19,703 nt of DNA, taken from Candidatus Vampirococcus lugosii. Lineage in GTDB: Bacteria; Patescibacteriota; Gracilibacteria; Absconditabacterales; Absconditicoccaceae. Shown piece by piece: positions 1 to 18,204 of this stretch. The DNA is taken from positions 1 through 19,703 of the forward strand of contig NZ_JAEDAM010000015.1 in NCBI RefSeq assembly GCF_018420025.1, in the 5' to 3' direction. Within the stretch, counting starts at the first letter, position 1, and every line of letters starts with the position of its first letter. The position numbers were made by a program, and so were the translations under genes. The notes beneath the pieces were generated by a model. The model saw only the letters and a program-made list of their open reading frames with translations. It was not told the origin of the DNA and ran no database searches.

Positions 1-786
1 ATTTACAACATTTTTTATTTCTGTTCGTGAATTTAATCAATAATGATCTTTAACTATATTTGACAAAATATCTCATGATTTTATAGTGTAATAATCTGGT
101 TCTAATTCTATATTCTCTGGATTCTCTGGATTCTCTGAATTCTCTGAATTCTCTGGATTCTCTGGATTCTCTGAATTCTCTGAATTCTCTGAATTCTCTG
201 GATTCTCTGGATTCTCTGGATTCTCTGGATTCTCTGAATTCTCTGAATTCTCTGGATTCTCTGAATTTTCTGGATTTTCTGGATTCTCTGAATTCTCTGA
301 ATTCTCTGGATTCTCTGGATTTTCTTGTTCATCAGATGGAATTCATATTTCTTTTGATCACCATTGTTCTTCCAACATTCTAGATTGTTCAGTATCTCAA
401 ACAGTATCATCAATTTCACCAGCTTGAACATCTCCACTACCTGAAAAGAAAGTAGTTATAGATTCTCGTAATTCAGAAATATTTTCTTTTGCCATATCAA
501 TAATACCAATTCTTTCATTATTTTGTTCACTTTCTACACTAACCAATTCATCTATAAAATTATTAAGAGCAATTTTTTGATCAGCATCCAAAGATAATGA
601 ATTATCAATATTATCCTTAATCTCTGAAATATCATCTTCATTACTTCGATCTATATCTTTACTTCAATCAATAATTCAATTTTCAACAAATAATGTATTT
701 ATAGCTTGACTTAAAACTTCATTATCTTCAACAGTTTCAACAGTTTCATTATCTTCAAACCTTTCATTATTAATATTTTCTACCAT
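1..786 (-). CDS. Acidic protein with (E-N-P/S)x23 repeat and C-terminal LysM domain; 3' end runs off the window
   Basis: ATG at 786-784. The frame stays open down to base 1 with no in-frame TAA/TAG (checked codon by codon); several in-frame TGA are read as Gly. The N-terminal ~150 aa are very D/E-rich with no obvious signal peptide. 112-318 encodes the ENP/ENS repeats. The last codons read PDYYTIKSGDILSNIVKDHYGLNSRTEIKNVVN, which fits the LysM consensus (Y-x-[VI]-K-x-GD-x-L-x-x-I-[AV]-x-x-[YH]-G). The standard-code ORF 108..437 (QRI repeat) is a different, wrong frame. Confidence 0.8.
112..318 (-). repeat. 23 tandem copies of a 9-bp unit (plus strand ATTCTCTGG / ATTCTCTGA / ATTTTCTGG), in frame, encoding Pro/Ser-Glu-Asn tripeptides
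   Basis: Direct reading gives 23 consecutive 9-bp units. Variation is limited to G/A at the last base (Pro vs Ser on the coding strand) and C/T in two units (synonymous gag/gaa Glu). Confidence 0.95.
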
Positions 787-1957: not shown

Positions 1958-2422
1958 TTATTTTTTTATAAAATAATATAAATTATGTGTTTTATTCAAA
2001 CTTTCTACAAAAATTTCAATAAAATATCAATCATATTTTGATTTTGAATTTATTTGTAAACAATTAATATTATATTCATATTTATCTTCAAAAGTATTTT
2101 CGTCATCACTTATTTTACTAATTATTAATTTTCAATCTTCATTACATTTGTATTGTATATACTCATCATTTTTTTGAATAACAATTTCGTTGGATCAAGT
2201 AAGATTTGTTCAAGTCATAGTAGACAATTCCCATCAATAATATCAATTAGCATAAATTACTTTTTTTATATCATTTATATTTTTTGCAATTTCCTGTGTG
2301 TTTTCACTTAATTTACTTATTGAAAAAAAGTTTGCAATTATACTTACCATAAGTCATCATATTAATGCAAAAAATCAAATATATATAGATATTTCCAATA
2401 AAGCAAATCATTTTTTATTCAT
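1958..2422 (-). CDS. Type IV pilin-like (minor pilin/pseudopilin) protein, 154 aa
   Basis: ATG at 2422-2420 overlaps the upstream stop (TAATG). The N-terminus MNKKGFALLEISIYIGFFALIGGLMVSII matches the prepilin class III signal (K-G|F-x-L-L-E plus a hydrophobic helix), and the cleavage-site Gly is encoded by TGA. The frame was checked codon by codon to TAA 1960-1958. Confidence 0.8.
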
Positions 2423-2811
2423 TATTTCAAAATTGAATAATTATAAAAATACTCTTCTCATAATTGTATTTCACAAAATATTATATTTTCTTGTATATCT
2501 GAATCTATTAATTTAAAATTTTCTTTTTTTTCACATTCAAAATAATTTGAATTAGTTTCAAATATATCTCAAGTATATATACTATAATTGTCTATATTAT
2601 TTCAAGTAAAAGTAATATATCAACTCATACTTTCACTTGTATTTTCAACAAGATATTTTGAGTAATTTATTATATTAATATTTTTATCATACTGTTTTTG
2701 TTCTTTCCAATAATCTTCAAATCATAATCTTGCAATTTGCAAACTTTCCAAAGAATAAAACAATATTACACTTACAATAAAAATTGCTATACTTACTTCC
2801 ATTAATTTCAT
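2422..2811 (-). CDS. Small membrane-anchored protein (129 aa) with a pilin-like hydrophobic N-terminal helix but no cleavage-site Gly
   Basis: ATG at 2811-2809 lies 3 nt after the upstream stop. The N-terminus is MKLMEVSIAIFIVSVILFYSLESLQIARLGFEDYW. The frame was checked codon by codon to TAA 2424-2422. Operon position between two pilin genes supports the call. The product assignment is weak. Confidence 0.65.
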
Positions 2812-2814
2812 TTA

Positions 2815-3615
2815 TTAATTTGTTTTACAAGAAATAGAAATATTACCTGAATCACTAACACATTCCCAATCCCAATTTGAATCAATACTTCAAGTTAAAT
2901 TTTTTGCATTTCATAAACTACATAATTTAGTAGGTCTTGAATTAATATCTGAATTATGATCTTGTCAACATTCTATACTACCATAATTTTTTATTAATCT
3001 ATTTTTTACCGCATCTCATGTAAATGAAACATTAGAACCAGTTAATATTATATTATATAAAGAAGGAAAATCTGGATCATATATATCTCAAGTTAATATT
3101 GATCAACTTGATGTTAATGCTTCATTATCATCTGAATTTACTATAATTCCCAACTCATTTCAAAGAGTTTTTATATCCATAATTGAAAAATTTTGTGCAT
3201 AAACTTTTTCAGTATATGAAAGATCTTCACTTTCTTTTTCCAAATATCACATAATTTGATATTTATTTTTTCCTTCATTTATATTATATATATATTCAAA
3301 ATCATCTTTTGGATCAAGTTGTTTAACAGTAATTCATTGTGTATTTGAAGTAGCATTATCACCAAAAGTTCATTGATATCAAAGAATAATAGCTCAACTT
3401 GTTATAGTTATTTTATTGTCAGGCTCAGGTAAATATCATTTTCTAAATAATTCTTGTTCCAAAGATGAAGAAATATTTTGTAAACTTGTAATTCTAGCAG
3501 TATTTCTTGCATCTCTCATATATTGACCAAAAAGAAAACTAGAACTTGCTGCAAGTATCATAATAATTCATATAGAAACAATTAATTCTATCAAAGTAAA
3601 TCATTTATTTTTCAT
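2815..3615 (-). CDS. Type IV pilin (prepilin with N-terminal cleavage/methylation motif), 266 aa
   Basis: ATG at 3615-3613. The N-terminus MKNKGFTLIELIVSIGIIMILAASSSF is the textbook K-G|FTLIEL prepilin peptidase site followed by a hydrophobic alpha-1 helix. That Gly is TGA (3603-3601). The C-terminal region has two Cys pairs (..IECGQDH..KLCS.. and ..WECVSDSGNISISC..). The frame was checked codon by codon to TAA 2817-2815. Confidence 0.9.
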
Positions 3616-3782: not shown

Positions 3783-5690
3783 ATGAAAAAAATTTATTTT
3801 ATTTCAATTTTGTTATCTGTTTTATTTTTACAAGCTTGTAATACTGAATACAAGGAAATAGAGTATTCGCAGAATCAAAATTATTATACAGTTAAGACTT
3901 GATCTATAAGTACACAGTGAAATTTTATTTGAAATATTGAATCTCAAAATCAAACAGTATTATCATCAAAAACTTTTGGTAGAGTAAATACATTAAATTT
4001 TTCCAAATGAGATTTTGTTAATAAATGACAAATAATAGCAAGTGTTGATTCTGTTCAATCTTCAATTTCTTATGATTCTATATGAAATGTTTTGGAAAAT
4101 CTTCGTTCTACTAGAAATTCTACAGAATTAATGTTTCAAAATCAAATAAAATCAGCACAATCAGCATATCATCAAGCTCAAAATTCTATCAATATGATTA
4201 AATCACAATTAGCTTGAACAACAAATCAAGTTCTTAATATAGAAAATATAAATAAAAGTAATTTGCAAGTAGCACAAGAACAAATAAATTCTGCTCAACT
4301 AGCTATTGAATCTATAAATAATGAAATTGAAAATGCAAAAACTAATTTTGAACAACAAGAAAATAATATATATTCAAATGCAACATCTTCAATAAGTGCA
4401 TCATCTATTTTATCAAAAAATATTTTGAAGTTTACGGATGAAATTTTGTGAGTATCAAATCAGAATAAAAACAAAAATAATTCTTTTGAAACTTATCTTT
4501 CTGCAAGAAATTCTTCCTTAAAAGCTGAAGCAAAAAATACTTGGTCAGATTTGAATAATAAATTTGAACAAATAGAAAATATGTATAATAATTTGGAAAC
4601 TCTTGCTTGAAATCCCAATTGAAAAGAAAAAATACAAGAAATTTTGTCTGAATATGAAAAATATTTATCAGATTTGAGAAGTTTTTTATCTGAATTTTAT
4701 GAAGTTCTTGATAAAAGTGTTAATGCAGTATCTTTTCCAGAATCTAAAATAAATAATTTAAAAGAAAGAACTATAAATTATCAACAAAATTTGGAAAAAA
4801 CATTGATTGATGCACAATGAAATTTTATGGTATGAATTAAATGAAGTTTACAAGCTATAAAAAATTTGGAAAATGAAAAAACATCAACTTTTGATAGATT
4901 AAAGAATAATCTTGAACAAGCTCAAAAACAACTTGATCAAGCGAATAAAGCTTATGAAAATTATGAAGCTATGTGAACTTCTGAATCAACTAAAGTTTTG
5001 ACTCAAAAAGAGGTTTATCAAGATCAAATTAAAGTTTATGAACAACAATCTCAACAAGCACAAGATAATGTATCTGCAATTCAAAACCAAATGGAATCTG
5101 AATTATCATCAATAGATTCAAAAATAGCTGAATTAGAATGACAAAGAAAATCAGTTTCTAGTCAAATACAAAATACAAATATTGTTGCTCCATTTTCTTG
5201 AGTAATTATTGAAAATAATGTTGAATTAGGGCAATTATTATGACCTGAAAATCCTGCTATTATTTTTGCAAGCAATCAAGATTTAAAAATTAATATCAAA
5301 ATTCCACAAACTTTATGAGAAAATATTTCTCAATGAGATAATGTAAATATAAAAATTTCTTGAAAAGAACAAGAATTTACTTGATTTGTATCAAAAATAT
5401 TTCCAAATATTGATCCTTTATCCAAAAGACTTGATATAGAAATTAAATTTAATGAATCTCCATGAGATACTTTAATTTGAATGTTTGCAAATATATCTTT
5501 TGATAAAAACAATATTTCTTGATTAAAAGTTCCTTATAGTTATATAAAATATGATTATTGAAGTGCATATTTAAATATTTTGCAAGAAAATAAGTCTTTA
5601 CAAAAAATTGATATAGAAAAAATACAATGTAATAATTGAGAATGTATAATAAAATGAGATTTGAGTGTATGAGATAAAATAATAAGATAA
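3783..5690 (+). CDS. Efflux membrane-fusion protein (HlyD/RND periplasmic adaptor family), putative lipoprotein, 635 aa
   Basis: ATG at 3783. The signal/lipobox-like N-terminus is MKKIYFISILLSVLFLQAC. A long Q/N/E/K-rich coiled-coil-like central region follows. The C-terminal barrel motif is typical of adaptors (NIVAPFSGVIIENNVELGQLLGPENPAIIFASNQDLKINIKIPQ). The standard-code ORF 4263..4451 is in the same frame. Stop TAA at 5688-5690. The gene sits immediately upstream of the RND permease. Confidence 0.85.
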
Positions 5691-5720
5691 ATAATTTATT
5701 TTTTAAATTTTCTTTTAATT

Positions 5721-8700
5721 ATGTTTTGAAAATATGCTGAATTTTGGATCAAAAATCCAAAACTTACAATCATATTAATGATAGTTATTTTGATTTGGTG
5801 ATTATTATCTTGGTTTGTAATTCCTAAACAATATAATCCTGATATTGAGGCTCCAACTTTTATAATTTCTGCACAAGCTCCTTGATATACTGCAAAAGAA
5901 GTAAATAATTTGTTAGTTTCTCAAATGGAAATGAAATTTAAAGAAATAGAAGATGTTAAAGAAATTTCTTGAAATTCTATGGAAAATTTCTGATCAGTTA
6001 TGGTAATGTTTGAAATATGAACTGATAAAGAAAAAGCAACAACTAGACTTTATAATAAAATTTATACAAGTTTAGATTTTTCTCCTATGTGAATATCTCA
6101 ACCTAGTGTAATGTCTATTGATCCAAATGATATTCCAATTTTTTCTTTTGCTATTTACAATACACAAAAAGATATTCCTGAACATAAAAACTTATTAAAA
6201 CTGAAAGATATATCTATTGATATTGTTGAAAGATTAAAACTTATTGATGATACTACAGTTTTTTATAATATATGAGCATATAATCAAAAATTAATTGTAA
6301 GAACAGATTTGGAAAAGTTATCTGAATACAATGTTGATATGACACAAATTCTTTGAGCAATATCACAAAATAATCAAAATTTTTATTGATGAAAAATTAA
6401 ATATGACAATATTATTTCTGATATTCAAGTAAAATGAGAAATATCTGATCTTTCTTCTATAGAAAATATAATTGTAGCAAATTATAATTGAAATAATATT
6501 TATTTATCTGATTTGGCAAATGTATATTTTTGAATATGAAAAGAAGAACATTTTGCAAAATTTTCTGAATATTGAGATACTAATGATGCAGTTTTTATTT
6601 GATTAGCAAAATCTCCAAGTGCAAATAGTATATTTGTAGTAAATGAAGTAAAACAAGAACTTGAAAAAATAAAATCGGAACTTCCTGCATCATATGAAAT
6701 TGTTGAAATACAAAATGAATGATATGAAGCTGAGAATGCAACTAATATGTTAATTATTAATCTTTTTCAAGCTATATTTATAGTTTTTATAGTTTTGTTT
6801 TTTTATTTATGATTTAAAGATGCTATAAATAATAGTATAGCTATTCCATTAACTTTAGCTATAGTTTTTGGTATAGCTTTGGCAATATGAGATAATGTAA
6901 ATAGAATTACATTATTTGCTGTAATTTTAGTTTTATGAATGTTGGTAGATAATAGTACTGTTATAGTAGAAAACATTTCTAGACATTTAAAAGATAGAGA
7001 AACAACTTGAGTTGATAAACTTACTGCAATCAAAACTTGAGTTCAAGAAGTTGGTTTTGGTGTAATATTGGCAACAATTACTAGAATATTAGCTTTTATT
7101 TCTATGTTTTTTGTTACAGATATGATGTGAGAGTATATGTGACCTATTCCCAAATATGCAATTATAGCTCTTAGTGCATCTTTTTTTATTGCCATGTCTA
7201 TCAATCCATTTTTTGCTTATTTTCTTACAAAAAAAGATTCTCAAAAATCTAATAAAAAAAATAATATCAAACAAGAAAATATTGAAATAAAACAAACTTG
7301 GATAGAAAAAAAATATAAATCTTTGATAGAACTTTTATTAACTCCCAAAACTTCTATTTTTAGAAAAATATTTAAAGCTATTTTTTGGATAGTTTTGATC
7401 GTGTCTGTAGTAGTTCCTATATATTATCAAGTATTTAAAGCTCAAATGCTTCCCAAATCTGATAAAAATCAATTTTATATTTGGATTGATGCACCCAGAG
7501 ATTGGTCTATAGATAAAACAAAAGATTTATTAAATCATATAGATGATTTTGTTTATGATTTTTCTTATGAAAGTGATAGTAAAGAAGATGAAAATTTAAA
7601 AATAATAAAATCTACTTCATCACGATGAGGTATACAACCTGTTCCAGATTTTGCTAGTGTTTTTCGTGGAAGTTATCAAAGACAAATGCAAAATCAATTA
7701 TCTATTAAAATTAATTTAATTAAAAGTGATTATAGAGATATTTTTTCGCAAGATTTTGTTATACAATTTAGACCTTTGATAAAAAAATATATAGATAGTA
7801 AATATCCTGAAGTTGAAATTAGATTATTGGAAGAACCACCTTGACCTCCTGTACAATCAACTTTTATGTTAAAAATTTCTTGAATGCCTGATCAAGATTA
7901 TGAAAATGTTTGAAATTTTGCTAAATGGATACAAGAAAAAATAAAACCATCTTTAGTTCAAAATCAAGTTGTAGATATATATAATTCTTTTCAAGAATAT
8001 CAAACTACCTACAAAATCAATCTAGATCAAGAAAAAATAACTAGACTCTGATTAAATATAGAACAAATTTGAAATTCTCTTTATTCAATTTTTGAATGAT
8101 TAGATATATCACCCTATCATGATCAATCTACAAAAAAACCTATAAATATTTTTGTTACAGCAAATCAAGAAAAAGTAAATGATATAAATATTTTTGATAA
8201 AATATATTTTACAAGCAAAAATTGAAAACAAGTTCCATTATTGGAAATAGCTGATATAATACCTCAAAAAAAAGCACAAACAATAATGAATAATGATATG
8301 CTTCCTACAGTATATATTTATTGAGAAATATGAGAAGATAGTATTGTTTATCCTAGTTTTGCATTATTATCTATATTTTTGGATAAAAAATTTTGGCAAG
8401 ATAAATTTGAAATTATCTCTTGGAATTTATATTGATTTAAATTGAAAGAAAAATTAACTTGAAATAATTATGAAGTAAATTTTTGATGAGAACGGGAAGT
8501 TACTATGGATACTTTTGCTGATATGTGAATAGCTATGATAATAGCTTTGCTTTGAATATATTTTATAATAGTTGCACAATTTAAATCATTTACTATATGA
8601 TGAATAGTTATGATAACATTTTTGTTATGATTTTTTGGTGTATTTCCTTGATTTGCTAGTATGTATATGATAAATTGAGAATTTTTTTCTGCTACTAGTA

Positions 8701-9023
8701 TGATATGAGTTATTGCTCTTGCTTGAATAGTAGTTGGTAATGCTATTATTTTAATAGAATATGTAAATGTTTTACTAAAATCTGGTTTATCTATTAGAGA
8801 TTCTATTATAAAAGCTTGAATTGTAAGACTTAGACCTATAATTCTTACTTCTCTTACTACAGTATTATGAATTACTACAATTTTATGAGATCCAGTATGG
8901 AGTGGTTTGGCATTTTCTATAATCTTTGGTCTAACTATTTCTGCCGTACTTACATTGATTGTAGTACCAGTTTTCTTATATGATAACTTAATTTGGCAAG
9001 ATCAAAAATTAAGTAAAAAATAA
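5721..9023 (+). CDS. RND-superfamily efflux permease (AcrB/AcrD/AcrF-like), 1100 aa
   Basis: ATG at 5721. The full frame was read through with no TAA/TAG (many TGA=Gly) to TAA 9021-9023. Supporting features are an N-terminal TM helix followed by a large soluble domain, the TM4-type motif LVLGMLVDNSTVIVENISRH, and the TM10-type motif ALAGIVVGNAIILIEYVN. The standard-code ORF 7194..7628 is in the same frame. Confidence 0.9.
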
Positions 9024-9831: not shown

Positions 9832-10260
9832 TTAATTATTTTTTTTAGATAATTTTAGATTAACAAGAGATTTTGCTATTTGCTCTTCAGCTTCTATAAA
9901 TGCCTCCATATCTATTTTATTTTTCTGACTTTTAATTTCTTCCATATTTTTTATAGCATCTAATCTTGCTTGTTCAGCCTTTTCAAAATCTAAATCTTCA
10001 GCTCCTACTACTGTATCCAAAATAATTTTACAATTATTTTCATTAAATTGTAATACTCCCCTTCATACTGCAAATTCTTTTGAAAAATCAGAATTATTTT
10101 CAACATAATCAATATATAATACCGATGGAATTATAGCAGATAAGATACAATGGTGATTGTCAAGTATAGTTAATTCTCAAGCTAAAGTATGGACATTTAT
10201 CAATTTCACATTATCATTTATAAAAGTTTCTCACTCAAAAGAAATTAATTCTAATTTCAT
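9832..10260 (-). CDS. atpC: F1 ATP synthase subunit epsilon, 142 aa
   Basis: ATG at 10260-10258. MKLELISFEGETFINDNVKLINVHTLAGELTILDNHH...GRGVLQF..., followed by the C-terminal helical hairpin (EKAEQARLDAIKNMEE...). Last gene of the atp operon. Stop TAA at 9834-9832. Confidence 0.9.
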
Positions 10261-10286: not shown

Positions 10287-11681
10287 TTATTTTTTTTGAC
10301 TATTTTCAAAAGAACTTATAACATCATCAATAGTCGCTTTGTACATAAAATGTTTTTCTCAAATATGATCAAGTTCTCAATCAATTATTTTTCTAAATCA
10401 AGAAATAGTATCACTTAATTTAGCATAAACTCATTTCATTCAAGTAAATTGTTCTGCAACGAAGAATGGTTGAGATAAGAATTTTTGAATTCTTCTAGCT
10501 CTTGAAACAGTCAATTTATCTTCTATAGAAAGTTCATCCATTCAAAGAATTGCTATAATATCTTGTAATTCTTTATATTTTTGAAGAATTCTTTGAATTT
10601 CTCTTGCAACATTATAATGTTCCTTTCATAAAACTTGAGGATCCAAAACTGTACTTGTAGAATCCAACGGATCAACAGCAGGGTAAATACCTAATTCTGC
10701 AATAGATCTATTCAAAACTATAGTACTATCCAAATGAGAAAAAGTTGTAGCAGGAGCTGGATCAGTAAGATCATCTGCTGGCACATAAACTGCTTGTACT
10801 GAAGTAATAGATCAATCTTTTGTTGAAGTAATTCTTTCTTGTAAAGCACCCATATCTGTTGCTAAAGTTGGTTGATATCAAACTGCTGATGGAATTCTTC
10901 AAAGTAATGCAGATATTTCTGATCAAGCTTGAGTAAATCTAAATATATTATCTATAAATAATAAAACATCTCTTTTTTCTCTATCTCTAAAATTTTCTGC
11001 CATTGTCAATCAAGTAAGTGCAACTCTAGCTCTAGGTCAAGGAGCTTCGTTCATTTGTCAAAATACCATAGCAGTTTTATCCAAAACTCAAGAATCTTTC
11101 ATTTCATGATATAAATCATTTCATTCTCTAGTTCTTTCTCAAACTCAAGCAACTACAGAATAACCACCATGTTCAGATGCAATATTATGAATTAATTCTT
11201 GCATTATCACTGTTTTTCAAACTCAAGCTCATCAAAATAATCAAACTTTTCATCATTTCAACATTGGAGCTATCAAATCTATAACTTTAATTCAAGTTTC
11301 AAATATTTCTGCACTTGTTGTTAATTCACTTAATTTTGGTGCATCTCTATGTATAGGATCCAAATTTTTAGTTTTAGGTTTTACTTTTCAATCTATCGGC
11401 TCTCACAAAACATTAAAAATTCTTCATAATACTTGTTCTCATACAGGAACTTTTATAGGACTATCAGTTGCAATAACTTCCAAACCTCTTTTTAATCAAT
11501 CTACAGGATTCATAGCTATAGTTCTAACAACTCAATCTCAAAGTAATTGTTGTACTTCCAAAACAACTTTGGAACCATTATGACTTAATTCAAGTGCATC
11601 ATAAATAGAAGGTACTAATCAATTTGAAAACTCAACATCTATAACAACTCAAATAATTCTAATTATTTTTCCTTTATTCAT
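10287..11681 (-). CDS. atpD: F1 ATP synthase subunit beta, 464 aa
   Basis: ATG at 11681-11679. Walker A GGAGVGKT is at 11234-11211 with all four Gly encoded by TGA. Other matches: [44 protein letters not shown], and the DELS motif ([10 protein letters not shown]). Stop TAA at 10289-10287. Confidence 0.98.
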
Positions 11682-11713: not shown

Positions 11714-12631
11714 CTAATCTTTCATTGATTCTACTCAAGAAACAATTTCACCAACTTCTTTTGTAATATAAGCTTGTCTTTCTTTATTATACTCCAAAGT
11801 AAGATCATAGGCATAATTATTTGCATTATCTTTTGCATTTTTCATAGCTATCATACGAGCAGAATGTTCTGATGCTTTTGATTCCAACAATATATCATAA
11901 AACATAGAATCCAATATCATAGGCATTATATAATTAAGCAATCTATCTCTTGATGGTTCTACATAATAATCATTTAAATCTTGTGAGTGATCAATTTCTA
12001 ACAATTCATTATAATAATTCTCTCACAAAATTTGATAAAAATAATCATAAATGGAATCTTTACTAAGAGAAAGAAATTTTGAAGTTAAAGGAATTTGTTT
12101 AATAGTATTTACATAATAATTATAAAATATAACAACTCTTCAATATTCTCACAAAACATATTTTTTAGTAAGCATTTTTGATATAGATTTAGAAAAAGAA
12201 TATGAAACATCATCAATAAATTCAGATGAATAATCAAGAATTATATTATTACCCGTTCTTGCCAAAAAATTACTTCATTTTTTTCATATAGAAACAAAAT
12301 CAATATTTTCATCTTTATTATTCTGTGTATAATCCAAAACTTTTTTCATAACATTTATATTATAAGCTCAACATAATCATTTATTTGATGTTATAAGAAC
12401 TCATAAAGTTTTTTTATTTGAAATATTATCAGAAAAAAAATGACTATTTTTTATAGAATCATTAAGATCAAGGAATATCTTAAATATAGATTTTATATAT
12501 TCTTTTTTCAATAAAGCTAAATCTTGTGCTTTTTTCATTTTTATTGTAGATATAAGTTCCATAGTTTTAGTAATTTTTGCAGTATTTTTTACAGAACTTA
12601 TTTTTCTCTTAATTTCTTTTGTATTAGACAT
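11714..12631 (-). CDS. atpG: F1 ATP synthase subunit gamma, 305 aa
   Basis: ATG at 12631-12629. MSNTKEIKRKISSVKNTAKITKTMELISTIKMKKAQ... The middle reads LITSNKGLCGAYN. The C-terminus reads ESKASEHSARMIAMKNAKDNA...ITKEVGEIVSGVESMKD and reads through the TGA at 11737-11735 to TAG 11716-11714. The two standard-code fragments (11735..12004, 12401..12631) are in this frame. Confidence 0.95.
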
Positions 12632-12665: not shown

Positions 12666-14171
<1,506 letters not shown>

Positions 14172-14184
14172 TATTTATTGTTTT

Positions 14185-14547
14185 TTAATAATTAAATAAA
14201 TTTTTTATAGTTTTTTGAAATTTCAAAAAGCTACAATCCAACATTTTATCATTACAAATCAATCTAATACCTCATAATAATGAAGTTTTAGGAACTAAAT
14301 CTATTTCATTTTTGTGAACATTAACTGCAAAATAATTTTTATATATTTGTATAGATTGGTTTATAACTTCATCTTTATCTTGCATAGGATAATATTCTAC
14401 AATATAAACATTTTTTGAATATAACTCATTTTTAAACTTTATTCTTCACTTATTTCATAGTTCTTTTATTAAATCTCTATAAAGAAATAAGTTCTTTTTT
14501 AAATATATAAGTTCCTCTCTAGTTAAATTATTCAATAACTTATTCAT
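14185..14547 (-). CDS. atpH: ATP synthase subunit delta (OSCP), unusually short at 120 aa
   Basis: ATG at 14547-14545. An in-frame TAA at 14565-14563 prevents any longer N-terminus. The frame was checked codon by codon to TAA 14187-14185. The C-terminal part, ...VYIVEYYPMQDKDEVINQSIQIYKNYF...SLLGGIRLICNDKMLDCSFLKFQKTIKNL, fits the delta C-terminal signature (GG[IV]x[IVL]xxGDxxxDxS). It occupies the operon slot between b and alpha. Confidence 0.75.
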
Positions 14548-14568: not shown

Positions 14569-15030
14569 TTAAATAACTTCTTTTTTTATAAATTCTTTAT
14601 TTTTTGATGGCTCATCAAAAAACTTTCAATTTATCATAAGAGATGTATCAACTATTTTTTTCTTTATTCATCTCAACATAATTTCTCTTTCTTTTTCCAT
14701 ATCTTTCTTGGCAGAATCAATAATAAAATCAGCTTTCAATTCTGCTTCTTTCATTTTTTCATTCATTTGTTTTTCAAGCAAAATTTCATTATTTTTTTGC
14801 ATTTCATTTACTTTCTTTTTAGTTTCATCCAATATTTTATTAGCTTCTTTTTCGGCATCATTCAATTTTTGTCTTTTTATATCATCAGCTTGTTTCAAAT
14901 CCAAAATTTTTTGTCTTCTATCTTCTATCAATTTTATAATTTTATTTCATAAAAAATAATAAAAAACAAAAACTATTATTCAAAAATTTATAATTTGTGC
15001 CAAAATAACTCAAAAACTTATATCTTCCAT
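14569..15030 (-). CDS. atpF: Fo ATP synthase subunit b, 153 aa
   Basis: ATG at 15030-15028. The N-terminal TM helix is MEDISFGVILAQIINFGIIVFVFYYFLGNKIIKLIEDRRQKI, followed by a long charged helix. The frame was checked across both TGA-separated parts to TAA 14571-14569. The standard-code ORF 14668..14931 is in the same frame. Confidence 0.9.
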
Positions 15031-15057: not shown

Positions 15058-17310
15058 TTAGTTAGATAATATCAAAAATGAAATTATCAATCAATATATT
15101 GCCGCCGACTCTACCATTGCAATAAATAATGTCATAAATGCCATAGATTTACCTTTATTATCTGGAGAATTATTTATTCAATTAATAGCTCATTTTATCA
15201 AAAATCACTCTCATACACCTACTCAAATACTAGCAAGTCAAATTGCTAATCCTGCTCACATCAATCAATAAATTCAAATAAGTCAATTACTAGCTAATAT
15301 CTGAAATGATATTATTAATCAATATATAGCTGCTGATTCTATCAATGCCACTCACAATATTGATACTGTCAAAAAATATCACATCATTTTTGAATTTTTT
15401 CACATAGTATATATTGCTGTCTCTGACATATATCATCTTCAAATAGCTACTCATAAACCAGCTAATCATATCGCCAGTCATGCTCATATTGCCATATCAT
15501 GATTTTCTAATCATCACATAATATTAAAAACTATTATCAATCAATATATAGCTGTAACTTCTATAAGTGCAATAAATAATACCATAAAAGTCATTATTTT
15601 ATTTTTAATCTCTGGATTTCTATTTATTGCTCATAATGCTCAAACTATCAATCTACCTTGTCATATTCAAACTCATAATCATGATAATCATATTGCCAAT
15701 CATGCTCATATAGATCAATATATTGACATAATAATACCTGGAGATATTAATTGAAAAGCTATTACTAATCAATATATTGCCGCTGACTCTATCAATGCTA
15801 CTCATAATATTGATATTGTCATAAAAAAATTAGTCATTTTATTATTATCTCAAATAACTTCCATAGTTTTTTCTGACATATATCATCTTCAAATAGCTAC
15901 TCATAAACCAGCTAATCATATCGCTAATCATGCTCATATTGCCAAATCATAATTTTCTAATCATCATATGATATTAAAAGAAATTATCAGTCAATATATA
16001 GCTGTAACTTCTACCAATGCAACAAATAAAACCATAAGTGTCATTATTTTGTTTTTCAACAAAGGTCTTTTAGAAATAGCTTTTAATGCTCAAACTACTA
16101 ATCTACCTTGTCATACTCAAACTCATAATCAAGATAATCATACCGCCAATCATGCTCATATAGCTCAATACATTGACATAATAACATCTGGAGATATTAA
16201 TTGAAAAGCTATTACTAATCAATATATCGCTGCCGACTCTACTAATGCTATTGATAATATTGACACTGCCAAATATGAATTTGACATTGCTTCATTCTCT
16301 CACATAAGTTCTATTGATTTCTTCGCAAGTGTTCACTGACCTATAGCTACTCATAAACCCGCTAATCATATCGCCAATCATGCTCATATCGCCAATCATC
16401 AATCTATTCATGTATTTCACATTACTCTAAATGCAAACACTAATCAATATATTGCCACTGACTCTACTAATGCTATAAATAACACCATAAAAGTCATCAC
16501 TCTATTTTTTGAATCTGATCTCTTTCAAATAGCTCATAATGCTCAAACTACTAATTTACCTTGTCATACTCAAACTCATAATCAAGATAATCATACCGCC
16601 AATCATGCTCATATAGCTCAATACATTGACATAATAACATCTGGAGATATTAATTGAAAAGCTATTACTAATCAATATATCGCTGCCGACTCTACTAATG
16701 CTATTGATAATATTGACACTGCCAAATATGAATTTGACATTGCTTCATTCTCTCACATAAGTTCTATTGATTTCTTCGCAAGTGTTCACTGACCTATAGC
16801 TACTCATAAACCCGCTAATCATATCGCCAATCATGCTCATATCGCCAATCATCAATCTATTCATGTATTTCACATTACTCTAAATGCAAACACTAATCAA
16901 TATATTGCCACTGACTCTACTAATGCTATAAATAACACCATAAAAGTCATCACTCTATTTTTTGAATCTGATCTCTTTCAAATAGCTCATAATGCTCAAG
17001 AGACCAAAAATCACTCTCATATTCAAGCTCAAGCTCATGCAAGTCATATCGCTAATCCAGCAGCTATACTAGAATATGCAGATATACTTTCATTACCAAA
17101 TATTTGAAACGAAACAACCAATGAATATATTAATGCCGATTCCAATAAAGCCACCCCCAAAATAGATATTGTCAAATAAAAACTACTCATACTAGGTCTA
17201 TCTGACATTACTTCCATAGTTTTTTTAACCAAAATTCACTGTCATATAGCAACTCATATTCAAGCAAGTCAAATTGCTAATCAAGGTCATAAATACCATA
17301 AAAATTCCAT
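15058..17310 (-). CDS. atpE: Fo ATP synthase subunit c, ten c-subunit hairpins fused in one 750-aa polypeptide (about 20 TM helices)
   Basis: ATG at 17310-17308 and TAA at 15060-15058, 751 codons in total. The 3' ~900 nt of the frame was checked triplet by triplet on the plus strand; the remainder was read through directly, and the ten module lengths sum to exactly 750 aa. The product is ten consecutive modules of [GxGxGxG helix 1 - polar loop - helix 2 with Glu]. Examples: MEFLWYLGPGLAIGLAGIGVAIGQG...LGVALLESALIYSLVV (H1) and ...GAGLAIGLSGLGVGIGQGRLIVGALGAINRNPEIKNKIMTFMVLFIALIEVTAIYGL (H8). It lies in the canonical slot between atpB and atpF. Most Gly codons are TGA (7 of 8 in H1). Confidence 0.9.
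16083..16997 (-). repeat. Near-perfect tandem duplication of a 453-bp (151-codon, two-hairpin) unit inside the c-subunit gene
   Basis: 16083-16535 and 16536-16988 were aligned by eye. They are identical except for one position (C at 16101 vs T at 16554, Arg vs Lys). Identity continues for 9 more nt (16989-16997) into a partial third copy. Confidence 0.9.
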
Positions 17311-17373
17311 AATAATATTGTATATTTTATATATATAAATAAATTAGTATAATTTAAACATATCAAATTAATT

Positions 17374-18204
17374 TTAAGCAAATTTTGCAACCTTTATAAA
17401 TATAGCTATCAATAATGGAAAAACTAATGCTTGTATCAAAGCAACAAGTAAAGATTGAAAATAAAGTATAACTGGTCCCAAAACTGGAAACTCAAAATTT
17501 AAATAAGTCAAAGTAAGTCATGAAATAGCTCATACCAACATAGCTAATAACATACCACCAGAAGTTACATTTCAAAACAATCTAAACGATAAAGATATTA
17601 CTTTTGCAAAATGTCAAACTATTTCTAATAATCACAAAAACAAAGAAATAATAAGATCAAAAATTTTAACAAGTATAAATAAAGGCCAATCAAAAATAGG
17701 ATTTAAATTTCATCTAGTATAAGGAAGATAATTTTTTCAAAATATAGGAAAATATTCATACAATGCTTTTCAAAATCATAAAGCTCTAAATTGCTCAAAA
17801 ATAATAATCAAAAGTCATATCAAAGCCATTGCTATATTAAAATTTATATCAGCTGTAGGAATATCTATATATTTTTTCAATAAAGAAACATCTGTATCTG
17901 CTATATTTCAAAATACTGGAACCAAAATTTCCAAAAATACTCAAAGTAAATTTGAAATTAATATAACAAAAAAAAGTATTACTACATAAGTTTTTATCCA
18001 TTTTTTTTCTTCATTTCATAATATATCTTCAAAAAAATCATACATTTTTTCAAAAAAATAATCAAAAAGTATTGAAAATCAACTATTAGGAAATAATCTA
18101 TAAAATATAGATATAAACAATATAAGTAATACTACTAAAACAGTTCAATAAAAAAATCAAGGATTTAGATAAAATGATAAAAAAGCTTCAAAAACACTTT
18201 CCAT
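17374..18204 (-). CDS. atpB: Fo ATP synthase subunit a, 276 aa
   Basis: ATG at 18204-18202. The frame was checked codon by codon to TAA 17376-17374. It contains the invariant-Arg motif of subunit a (KVISLSFRLFGNVTSGGMLL) and the C-terminal LVALIQALVFPLLIAIF. First gene of the operon. Confidence 0.93.

What the first reader, a model, noticed from the sequence alone, without database searches (positions are those of the whole stretch)
15058..17310. An entire F-type c-ring apparently encoded as one gene: ten fused c-subunit hairpins
A 70-90-codon atpE is expected between atpB (a) and atpF (b). Instead there is one ORF of 750 sense codons (ATG 17310, TAA 15060-15058) with no TAA/TAG in frame. Its translation is ten consecutive copies of the c-subunit fold. 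Each copy has helix 1 with the GxGxGxG packing motif (e.g. GAGLAIGLAGLGVAIGQG), a short polar loop (SDRPS, NRNPE, SKRPL, KRSDS...), and helix 2 with the ion-binding carboxylate (ALLESALIY, ALVESAAIYGLV, ALIEVTAIYGL, AMVESAAIYGL). Module boundaries on the minus strand are: H1 17310-17098, H2 17097-16873, H3 16872-16648, H4 16647-16420, H5 16419-16195, H6 16194-15967, H7 15966-15745, H8 15744-15517, H9 15516-15295, H10 15294-15061. Their lengths are 71, 75, 75, 76, 75, 76, 74, 76, 74 and 78 aa, summing to 750. All ten retain the Glu. Linkers of about 8-10 residues join helix 2 of one module to helix 1 of the next. Ten hairpins lies within the c8-c17 range established for F-type rings, so a single polypeptide could form the whole rotor ring with genetically fixed stoichiometry. 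Multi-hairpin proteolipids are established for V/A-type enzymes: two hairpins in V-type c, three in Methanocaldococcus jannaschii, thirteen in Methanopyrus kandleri. A two-hairpin c1 exists in the Acetobacterium woodii F-type enzyme. Engineered c-fusions were reported functional in thermophilic Bacillus PS3. I know of no natural F-type operon with a whole ring in one gene. Most Gly codons of the GxGxGxG motifs are TGA, so the gene is invisible under code 11 (only 60-78-aa scraps in the ORF track). Under code 4 it would read WxWxWxW. It is therefore easy to miss in automated annotation.
Basis: partly seen in the sequence, partly recalled or inferred. Interest (0 to 1): 0.95.

Follow-up and report, generated by a model that had tools for sequence, protein, structure and literature searches.

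The report
Ten-hairpin fused F-type rotor subunit
In the predatory bacterium Candidatus Vampirococcus lugosii, the ATP-synthase rotor subunit c is encoded as one 750-residue protein made of ten fused c-subunit hairpins; it is one member of a large and apparently undescribed family in UGA=glycine bacteria whose genes carry 2 to 13 fused hairpins, so rotor size appears to be written into the gene and is still changing.

Summary
Window 15058-17310(-) is one code-25 ORF of 750 codons (106 TGA-Gly) with ten ATP-synt_C hairpins, each keeping the helix-2 Glu. It lies between atpB and atpF in an F-type operon. The window is Ca. Vampirococcus lugosii. The protein is already deposited but is not discussed in the genome paper.

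New points:
- The hairpins alternate between two types, so the gene is five copies of a two-hairpin (AB) unit.
- A 453-bp AB unit was duplicated very recently (443 bp exact). It is longer than the 125-bp reads, so ten is what was assembled and twelve is not excluded.
- About 50 related code-25 loci have the same gene with 2, 4, 6, 8, 10 or 12 hairpins. Many add a second c gene of 4-13 hairpins upstream of atpB.
- A separate standard-code lineage has F-type genes of 613 aa (8 hairpins confirmed); shorter relatives by length suggest 5 and 7.

Genes with 2-7 hairpins cannot close a ring alone, so fusion does not always mean a whole ring. No gene exceeds 13 hairpins, and the 8-13 class lies inside the known c8-c17 range. 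AlphaFold gives a toroid-like c10 model and no closed ring for c6. A single-chain c10 ring is the most likely reading (about 0.55) but is unproven.

The parts
17374..18204 (-). atpB, F-type subunit a (276 aa), with the essential Arg in LSFRLFGN
   Evidence: Pfam PF00119, E = 4e-28. NCBIfam hits are F0F1 subunit A models. The Arg motif is shown.
15058..17310 (-). atpE encoding ten fused c hairpins (750 aa; ATG 17310, TAA 15060-15058; 106 of 122 Gly codons are TGA)
   Evidence: (10 PF00137 stretches, E = 7e-131). It is 100% identical to P0001 of Ca. Vampirococcus lugosii.
17098..17310 (-). Hairpin H1 (A type; Gln at the Ilyobacter Q32 position; conserved N-terminal hairpin of the family)
16873..17097 (-). 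Hairpin H2 (B type; Glu32 plus Glu65)
16648..16872 (-). Hairpin H3 (A type), 100% identical in protein sequence to H5
16420..16647 (-). Hairpin H4 (B type); a hybrid whose N-terminal half matches H6 and whose C-terminal half matches H2
16195..16419 (-). Hairpin H5 (A type), identical to H3
15967..16194 (-). Hairpin H6 (B type; Glu-Val-Thr in helix 2)
15745..15966 (-). Hairpin H7 (A type; Arg at the Q32 position, codon 15888-15886)
15517..15744 (-). Hairpin H8 (B type; Glu-Val-Thr in helix 2)
15295..15516 (-). Hairpin H9 (A type; Arg at the Q32 position, codon 15438-15436)
15061..15294 (-). Hairpin H10 (B type; C-terminal hairpin; Glu32 plus Glu65)
16104..16546 (.). Copy 1 of the exact 443-bp repeat; the identical stretch extends to 16084-16546 with a single A/G difference at 16103, at a period of 453 bp
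16557..16999 (.). Copy 2 of the exact 443-bp repeat, i.e. a recent tandem duplication of one two-hairpin AB unit
14569..15030 (-). atpF, subunit b (153 aa)
   Evidence: Pfam PF00430, E = 1e-15.
14185..14547 (-). Short ORF (120 aa) in the delta position; conserved across the clade at 115-121 aa and probably a truncated delta
   Evidence: No Pfam or NCBIfam hit. Present in nearly all relatives. A profile gives a weak match to the C-terminal end of OSCP, E = 0.059.
12666..14171 (-). atpA, alpha subunit (501 aa)
   Evidence: Pfam PF00006, PF00306 and PF02874.
11714..12631 (-). atpG, gamma subunit (305 aa)
   Evidence: Pfam PF00231, E = 4.5e-76.
10287..11681 (-). atpD, beta subunit (464 aa)
   Evidence: Pfam PF00006 and PF02874.
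9832..10260 (-). atpC, epsilon subunit (142 aa)
   Evidence: Pfam PF02823, E = 2.4e-11.

Best explanation
Shown: the atpE gene of the Ca. Vampirococcus lugosii F1Fo operon encodes one 750-aa, 20-helix protein made of five tandem AB double-hairpin units, giving ten c hairpins that each keep the ion-carrying Glu. Its middle AB units are lineage-specific duplicates and the terminal hairpins 1 and 10 are conserved. The newest duplication, a 453-bp unit, is almost mutation-free. Inferred: the gene grew from a shorter gene resembling the six-hairpin form by unequal crossing-over. The protein is the rotor ring of the enzyme. Consecutive hairpins pack side by side as separate c subunits do, joined by short linkers of about 4-8 residues on the side away from F1. 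One polypeptide most probably closes on itself into a c10 ring that carries ten ions per turn (3.3 per ATP). By the published sequence rule the coupling ion is H+. Because the hairpins are covalently ordered they can differ from one another. The sites alternate between A and B types, and two sites (H7 and H9) carry an Arg beside the carboxylate that might silence them.
For: Gene and fold. F-type context, with subunit a carrying its essential Arg, plus b, alpha, gamma, beta and epsilon. Single hairpins score best against F0F1 subunit C models. Purifying selection between paralogous hairpins, dN/dS 0.33-0.53. Every hairpin in the window and relative c genes inspected keeps the Glu, apart from one contig-truncated hairpin. 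Growth by AB-unit duplication: odd and even hairpins form two classes; orthology to six-hairpin genes follows 1-2-(3-4)n-5-6; the a-b gene always has an even number of hairpins; recent internal repeats also occur in other expanded genes. Single-chain ring: ten lies within the known c8-c17 range, and an engineered single-chain c10 of Bacillus PS3 is active (PMC8809890). No family member exceeds 13 hairpins even though the search ranks longer proteins first. No second c gene lies in the 1.5 kb upstream of atpB here, nor upstream in the four c10/c12 relatives with at least 3 kb of sequence. The AlphaFold2 c10 model (pTM 0.77) has closed single-chain alpha/alpha toroids as its best PDB matches. 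The confident c6 control (pLDDT 90.5, pTM 0.90) matches two-hairpin c subunits and an open repeat protein and no toroid. The seam follows the same neighbour rule as internal junctions: Val66 of the last hairpin pairs with Gln32 of the first. H+ prediction: none of the ten sites meets the multi-hairpin Na+ motif of ProAD, which agrees with the genome paper.
Against: There are no protein-level data. Ring closure rests on a medium-confidence model (pLDDT 68, four-sequence alignment) whose coordinates I could not inspect. Relatives with 2, 4, 6 or 7 hairpins as their only operon c gene must form rings from several chains, so multi-chain rings are normal in this family. 2, 4, 6 and 12 all divide 12, and ten does not. 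The count of ten depends on a 443-bp exact repeat in an MDA plus 2x125-bp SPAdes assembly. Only 1.5 kb upstream of atpB is in the window, and I could not search the rest of the genome for another c gene. No close relative or second assembly of this species was found.
Confidence: 0.55

Rival explanations
1. The c10 polypeptide is a building block and not the whole ring. Two chains would form a c20 ring, or c10 would combine with the product of another c gene elsewhere in the genome (for example a c2 unit, giving c12).
For: Family members with 2, 4, 6 or 7 hairpins must oligomerise, and 13 loci carry two c genes per operon. 43 of the 47 a-b genes in the survey have hairpin numbers that divide 12. 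Only 1.5 kb upstream of atpB is visible here.
Against: A c20 ring lies outside the F-type range of c8-c17 (PMC8809890). Relatives with c10 or c12 in the a-b position have no upstream c gene where at least 3 kb is available. No gene exceeds 13 hairpins. The AlphaFold model of the single chain is toroid-like.
Confidence: 0.2
2. The number ten is an assembly product. The real gene has a different number of the 453-bp unit: most plausibly three copies (twelve hairpins, the commonest large class), less plausibly one copy (eight hairpins).
For: The 443-bp exact repeat is longer than the 125-bp reads, and the template was MDA/MALBAC-amplified. Five relatives have c12 in the same position. Assemblers tend to collapse identical tandem copies.
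Against: The junction between the two copies and the single A/G difference (Lys versus Arg) are specific sequences that must have been present in reads, so fewer than two copies is unlikely. An independent c10 gene exists in GCA_028689115.1, where the longest exact internal repeat is only 102 nt.
Confidence: 0.2
3. The ORF is a polyprotein that is cleaved in its linkers into single or double hairpins, which then assemble like ordinary c subunits.
For: The linkers fall into two conserved classes, for example ISPDVIMSMYG and GNTGIDGG/GGLENYD, which could in principle be recognition sites.
Against: No protease or processing signal is evident. The linkers are short and the model packs them tightly. 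Engineered uncleaved fusions work. The Methanopyrus kandleri precedent is interpreted as an uncleaved rotor (PMC2359735).
Confidence: 0.04
4. The gene is a runaway repeat expansion with no function, i.e. a decaying atpE.
For: Very recent duplication. The organism lacks a known respiratory chain (PMC8080830).
Against: The ORF is intact over 750 codons. All ten Glu and all Gly motifs are kept. dN/dS between repeats is 0.33-0.53. The rest of the operon is intact. The architecture is conserved in about 50 species.
Confidence: 0.02

Closest known systems
Subunit K of the Methanopyrus kandleri A-type ATP synthase (13 hairpins in one 1021-aa protein; Lolkema and Boekema 2003, as cited in PMC2359735)
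   Same: Many c/K hairpins are fused in one ORF, every hairpin keeps its ion-binding carboxylate, and the number of hairpins fits a complete ring. Homologues appear among the distant hits (P0116).
   Different: That protein is archaeal and A-type, sitting in an operon with V_ATPase_I, E, C and F (compare L045). The present gene sits in a bacterial F-type operon with a, b, gamma and epsilon. Its hairpins are closest to F0F1 subunit C models and alternate between two types.
Engineered single-chain c10 of Bacillus PS3 F1Fo (Mitome et al. 2004; used in PMC8809890)
   Same: Ten F-type c hairpins in one polypeptide, shown to be active in ATP synthesis and proton pumping. This is the direct functional precedent for a covalent F-type c10 ring.
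   Different: That construct is artificial, with identical hairpins joined by GSAG linkers. The gene here is natural, with diverged A and B hairpins, natural linkers, and site-to-site differences including Arg32 in two hairpins.
Acetobacterium woodii F-type c1 (a two-hairpin c subunit; PDB 4bem chain J) and V-type c subunits
   Same: These are natural double-hairpin c subunits, and the A. woodii one is in an F-type enzyme. 4bem_J is the best structural match of the family's c6 model. The AB pair is also the repeat unit here.
   Different: To my knowledge (not tested here), those double hairpins have lost one carboxylate, which lowers the ion/ATP ratio. Here both hairpins of every AB unit keep the Glu, and up to 6.5 units are fused.
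Multi-hairpin c genes of Gracilibacteria and related code-25 bacteria found here (P0002-P0099; L001-L041, L046-L063)
   Same: Same family, same operon position, same AB alternation, same genetic code. GCA_028689115.1 also has ten hairpins (P0008, 56% identity).
   Different: Hairpin number varies (2, 4, 6, 8, 12; also 7, 12 and 13 in genes upstream of atpB). V. lugosii reached ten by its own duplications and uses Gln rather than Glu at position 32 in most hairpins.

Membership tests
ATP synthase subunit c (Pfam PF00137 / F0F1 subunit C) | Helical hairpin with a Gly-rich helix 1, a short polar loop and a membrane-embedded carboxylate in helix 2 | tested here: met
   Ten PF00137 stretches, E = 7e-131. 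All ten hairpins have the Gly motif and the Glu. AlphaFold2 predicts 20 helices in 10 hairpins.
ATP synthase subunit c (Pfam PF00137 / F0F1 subunit C) | A single hairpin of about 70-90 residues per polypeptide | tested here: not met
   750 aa and ten hairpins. For this reason I file it as a variant and not as an ordinary member.
F-type (not A/V-type) rotary ATPase | Operon with subunits a (ATP-synt_A), b, gamma and epsilon, without V_ATPase_I, E, C or F subunits | tested here: met
   PF00119, PF00430, PF00231 and PF02823, in the order a-c-b-(delta-like)-alpha-gamma-beta-epsilon. The same order holds in relatives. The A-type operon L045 provides the contrast.
F-type (not A/V-type) rotary ATPase | A recognisable delta/OSCP subunit | tested here: inconclusive
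   The 120-aa ORF in the delta position has no Pfam or NCBIfam hit. A clade profile gives only a weak match to the C-terminal end of OSCP, E = 0.059.
F-type (not A/V-type) rotary ATPase | Individual hairpins are closest to F-type c rather than V/A-type K | tested here: met
   For single hairpins H3 and H8 the top NCBIfam hits are F0F1 subunit C models. The whole protein also hits V-type K models, as expected for a multi-hairpin protein.
Monomeric (single-polypeptide) rotor ring, as proposed for M. kandleri K | The number of fused hairpins lies within the range of complete rings | tested here: met
   Ten hairpins, against the F-type range of c8-c17 (PMC8809890). Caveat: the repeat copy number is uncertain.
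Monomeric (single-polypeptide) rotor ring, as proposed for M. kandleri K | Every hairpin retains an ion-binding carboxylate | tested here: met
   10 of 10 hairpins have the Glu.
Monomeric (single-polypeptide) rotor ring, as proposed for M. kandleri K | One chain closes into the ring, with one chain per enzyme | tested here: inconclusive
   The AlphaFold2 model has pTM 0.77 and pLDDT 68, and its best PDB matches are closed single-chain toroids. The c6 control gives no toroid match. Coordinates were not inspectable and there are no experimental data.
Na+-coupled c subunits (Mulkidjanian 2008 / ProAD motif) | [Q/E]32 and E65 in hairpin i, together with [S/T]66-[S/T/Q]67-x-x-Y70 in the preceding hairpin | tested here: not met
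   Position 67 is Ala or Val, or position 66 is Val, in every preceding hairpin (rule taken). H+ is therefore predicted, in agreement with PMC8080830.
A. woodii c1 / V-type double-hairpin c | Duplicated hairpin with loss of one of the two carboxylates | tested here: not met
   The double-hairpin AB unit is present, but both hairpins keep the Glu in all units and in the relatives inspected.

The most novel reading that the evidence does not exclude
Code-25 candidate-phyla-radiation bacteria (Absconditabacteria and Gracilibacteria) build F-type rotor rings from covalently concatenated hairpins. Complete rings of 8, 10, 12 or 13 hairpins would each be a single polypeptide. The ion/ATP ratio would then be hard-wired in the gene, would change in steps of two hairpins by unequal crossing-over (one such step is caught almost mutation-free in V. 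lugosii), and could be fine-tuned by making individual sites different or silent, as with the Arg32 sites. Some species would keep two alternative rotor genes in one operon.
Probability: 0.4. Interest if true: 0.85.

Novelty: new variant of a known kind. Interest (0 to 1): 0.75.

Why it matters
What sets c-ring size, and with it the H+/ATP ratio, is a long-standing question in bioenergetics. In ordinary enzymes ring size is an emergent property of identical subunits. Here nature seems to have written the number into the gene in an F-type enzyme, in many versions from 2 to 13 hairpins, with every carboxylate kept. That provides a ready-made natural series for three tests: how ring size is tolerated by one F1/stator design, whether non-identical sites around a ring are used, and why organisms without a known respiratory chain keep such an enzyme. 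It also shows that UGA=Gly recoding hides or garbles these Gly-rich genes in databases, where many entries are translated with Trp in place of Gly.

Tried and rejected
- Five further literature searches found no paper on natural F-type multi-hairpin c subunits in these bacteria. The V. lugosii paper (found) and ProAD mention c subunits only generically. The library does not cover most subscription journals, so absence here is not proof of absence.
- I looked for a close relative or a second assembly of V. lugosii and found none. Its 90% cluster has one member on one contig, and a-subunit identity in the genome and metagenome scans is at most 67%.
- I tried to name the organism of the standard-code c8 group and found no names.
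- I considered a constant c12 ring for the whole family (c2x6, c4x3, c6x2, c12x1). I rejected it as a general rule because robustly assembled c8, c10, c13 and c7 genes exist.
- I considered that the operon's two c genes always sum to one ring. I rejected this because the sums vary (8, 10, 12, 14, 18, 19).
- The trend that a-b genes with ten or more hairpins lack an upstream c gene (0 of 4, against 11 of 20 for shorter genes) rests on too few loci to be significant.
- A search for a second c gene elsewhere in the V. lugosii genome was not possible with these tools.
Full report
**1. What is in the sequence**

The reverse complement of 15058-17310 reads under table 25 as one ORF of 750 sense codons ending in TAA. 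It has 106 in-frame TGA codons and no TAG or internal TAA. Under table 11 the frame has 107 stops, and only ORFs of 42-78 aa are seen. TGA=Gly is verified independently of this gene: the invariant Walker-A glycines of alpha and beta are TGA, and TGA supplies 60-100% of Gly codons in each operon gene (about 85-90% in a, c, alpha and beta).

Pfam finds ten separate ATP-synt_C stretches (E = 7e-131). All ten hairpins have the Gly-rich helix 1 and the helix-2 Glu. AlphaFold2 predicts exactly 20 helices in 10 hairpins, with inter-hairpin linkers of about 4-8 non-helical residues.

The flanking genes are a (with its essential Arg), b, a short ORF in the delta position, alpha, gamma, beta and epsilon. 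This is an F-type operon.

**2. Identity of the window**

The protein is 100% identical to a deposited 750-aa protein of Candidatus Vampirococcus lugosii on a 19,703-bp contig. NCBI calls it 'hypothetical protein' and UniRef calls it 'ATP synthase subunit c'. The genome paper (PMC8080830) predicted genes with Prodigal table 25. It discusses the F1Fo enzyme as puzzling in an organism without a respiratory chain, and aligns one c hairpin to argue for H+ coupling. It does not mention ten hairpins. So the gene was not missed by annotation, but its architecture appears not to have been remarked on.

**3. Internal anatomy**

The hairpins fall into two alternating classes. The odd ones (H1, 3, 5, 7, 9) are 51-100% identical to each other. 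The even ones are 49-77% identical to each other. Odd and even hairpins are only about 37-47% identical. The gene is therefore five AB double-hairpin units.

H3 and H5 are identical. At the DNA level, 16104-16546 equals 16557-16999 exactly. The identity extends over 463 bp with one A/G difference (Lys versus Arg) at a period of 453 bp, which is one AB unit. Older unit pairs are about 82% identical. dN/dS between paralogous hairpins is 0.33-0.53, so the repeats are under purifying selection.

**4. The repeat and the assembly**

The genome was assembled with SPAdes from 2x125-bp reads of MDA/MALBAC-amplified DNA. A 443-bp exact repeat exceeds the read length. The junction between the two copies and the single difference are specific sequences that must have been read, so fewer than two copies is unlikely. 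Extra identical copies, however, would be collapsed by the assembler. Ten is therefore what was assembled, and twelve is not excluded.

Multi-hairpin genes as a phenomenon do not depend on this repeat. Another c10 gene has exact internal repeats of at most 102 nt. Several c12 and c13 genes have repeats of at most 65 nt.

**5. The family**

A protein search returned 99 close relatives before the archaeal A-type proteins begin. Their lengths fall into classes that correspond to 6, 7, 8, 9, 10, 12 and 13 hairpins. Many entries were translated with Trp in place of Gly.

Genomic context was examined for about 50 distinct loci from species genomes and metagenomes, all using in-frame TGA. The counts for the gene between a and b are:

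| Hairpins in the a-b gene | Loci |
|---|---|
| 2 | 5 |
| 4 | 13 |
| 6 | 20 |
| 8 | 2 |
| 10 | 2 (this window and GCA_028689115.1) |
| 12 | 5 |

The number is always even. Thirteen loci carry a second multi-hairpin c gene upstream of atpB, with 4, 6, 12 or 13 hairpins (one is cut by the contig end). Three loci, including human oral Gracilibacteria and a complete genome, have a 7-hairpin gene before atpB and none between a and b. Every complete hairpin in the loci inspected in detail keeps the Glu.

Orthology of hairpins shows that the 10- and 12-hairpin genes are internal expansions of a six-hairpin-like gene, with the pattern 1-2-(3-4)n-5-6 and conserved first and last hairpins. V. lugosii and the other c10 species expanded different units, so their expansions were independent. 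The expanded genes in other species also contain recent repeats of 102-599 nt. Copy-number change is therefore ongoing in the clade.

**6. A second, independent case**

P0104 has 613 aa and eight nearly uniform hairpins, each with the canonical ARQPEADGK loop and a Glu. It lies in a complete F-type operon with a full-length OSCP delta. The DNA translates under the standard code, and the locus has 43% GC. Its small group also contains proteins of about 535 and 383 aa, whose lengths suggest seven and five hairpins; I did not count these. The organism could not be named. Natural multi-hairpin F-type c subunits have therefore arisen at least twice.

**7. Does one chain make the ring?**

Arguments in favour:
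- Ten lies inside the F-type range of c8-c17, and an engineered single-chain c10 of Bacillus PS3 is active (PMC8809890).
- The family has an upper limit of 13 hairpins even though the search ranks longer proteins first. The large class (8, 10, 12, 13) coincides with known ring sizes.
- Loci with c10 or c12 in the a-b position show no second c gene where upstream sequence is available.
- The AlphaFold2 c10 model (pTM 0.77) finds closed single-chain alpha/alpha toroids as its best PDB matches. A very confident c6 control (pLDDT 90.5, pTM 0.90) instead matches two-hairpin c subunits and an open repeat protein.
- The last-to-first seam obeys the same neighbour rule as internal junctions.

Arguments against:
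- Members with 2-7 hairpins must form rings from several chains, so multi-chain assembly is normal in this family.
- 2, 4, 6 and 12 divide 12, and ten does not.
- The c10 model has only medium confidence, and I could not inspect its coordinates.
- The rest of the genome could not be searched for another c gene.
- The copy number is uncertain.

I rate a single-chain c10 ring at about 0.55. I rate a multi-chain or mixed ring at about 0.2. Independently of that, I rate a wrong hairpin count at about 0.2.

**8. Ion sites**

Across 47 distinct genes, the residue at the Ilyobacter Q32 position of hairpin i covaries with position 66 of hairpin i-1:

| Position 66 of hairpin i-1 | Position 32 of hairpin i | Cases |
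|---|---|---|
| Ser | Glu | 225 |
| Ser | Arg | 0 |
| Val | Arg | 27 |
| Val | Gln | 6 |
| Val | Glu | 0 |

The same-hairpin and i+1 comparisons show no such rule. These counts are not independent events, because the units are duplicated and the sequences are related. The rule fits a site built from two neighbouring hairpins, as in the multi-hairpin rule of ProAD.

In V. lugosii none of the ten sites meets the Na+ motif, so H+ is predicted, in agreement with the genome paper. H7 and H9 carry Arg at position 32, and each follows a Val66/Thr67 hairpin. Whether that Arg neutralises the neighbouring Glu, leaving eight active sites out of ten, is speculation.

**9. Comparison with what is known, and novelty**

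The closest natural analogue is the 13-hairpin K subunit of the Methanopyrus kandleri A-type enzyme (PMC2359735). The closest functional analogue is the engineered PS3 c10. The closest F-type natural relative is the two-hairpin c1 of Acetobacterium woodii, which is also the best structural match of the family's c6 model.

The present gene differs in three ways. It is F-type, it keeps all carboxylates, and it belongs to a family whose repeat number varies from 2 to 13.

I found no description of this in the searchable literature. That library is incomplete, and the sequences themselves are public. I therefore class it as a new variant of a known kind, of high interest to ATP-synthase specialists. 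The central mechanistic claim, one chain per ring, is still to be tested.

Noticed in passing
L003 3106-6012 (c13), L005 2326-5016 (c12), L014 5391-6734 (c6), L036 4317-5207 (c4), L017 4013-6706 (c12): Many relatives carry a second multi-hairpin c gene upstream of atpB in addition to the gene between a and b. The combinations seen are c13+c6, c12+c6, c6+c6, c6+c4, c4+c4 and c12+c2. Whether these are two alternative rotors or parts of one mixed ring is unknown. V. lugosii has none within 1.5 kb upstream.
   Followed up: partly
L003, L009, L011, L017, L040 (upstream c gene compared with the rest of the operon): In genomes of the c12/c13 + c6/c2 type, the upstream c gene encodes 58-70% of its Gly with TGA. 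The a-b c gene, alpha and beta use TGA for only 0-7%. This could reflect differential expression or foreign origin. It remains unexplained.
   Followed up: partly
window 15888-15886 (H7) and 15438-15436 (H9), minus strand: Arg occupies the position of Ilyobacter Gln32, next to the ion-binding Glu, in two of the ten hairpins. Family-wide, Arg/Gln32 follows a Val66 hairpin and Glu32 follows a Ser66 hairpin (Ser to Glu 225 cases; Val to Arg 27 and Val to Gln 6 cases; none in the opposite sense). This may mark silent or special sites.
   Followed up: partly
L044 7001-8842: A standard-code bacterium (locus GC 43%) has an F-type operon with an 8-hairpin c gene (P0104) made of uniform hairpins with canonical ARQPEADGK loops. 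Its relatives of about 383 and 535 aa suggest 5 and 7 hairpins by length (not counted). This is an independent origin of fused F-type c subunits, and the organism is not identified.
   Followed up: partly
window 14185-14547 (-): The ORF in the delta position is only 120 aa, against about 170-180 aa for ordinary delta. It is conserved at 115-121 aa across the clade and has no Pfam or NCBIfam hit. A profile matches only the C-terminal end of OSCP weakly (E = 0.059). It is probably a delta that lacks much of the N-terminal domain.
   Followed up: partly
L001 13674-14006; L002 7552-7962; L003 11744-12079: Relatives have an extra ORF of 110-136 aa with no Pfam hit between gamma and beta. V. lugosii has only 32 bp there.
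   Followed up: no
L004 7001-8575; L027 5394-6959; L062: Human oral Gracilibacteria (GN02-872 and the complete genome of HOT-871) have the gene order c7-a-b, with an odd number of hairpins, degenerate position-32 residues (M, L, G, A), and no c gene between a and b.
   Followed up: no
window 17311-17373: A 27-bp AT-rich tandem repeat (2.3 copies) fills the a-c intergenic spacer immediately upstream of the c10 start codon.
   Followed up: no
window 15968-17179 (+): Under code 25 a 403-aa ORF runs antisense to the c10 gene. It is most likely a by-product of the repetitive, stop-poor sequence and not a gene.
   Followed up: no
window 3783-9023 (+): An HlyD-like membrane-fusion protein and an AcrB-family RND transporter lie next to the atp operon. 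The RND transporter consumes proton-motive force, which is relevant to the idea that the ATPase runs in reverse to energise the membrane.
   Followed up: no
window 1-786 (-) and 1958-3615 (-): At the window start there is a highly acidic protein with a long ENPENS/ENSENP repeat. Further along are pilin-like genes, one of which (2815-3615) has an N-terminal methylation motif (PF07963).
   Followed up: no
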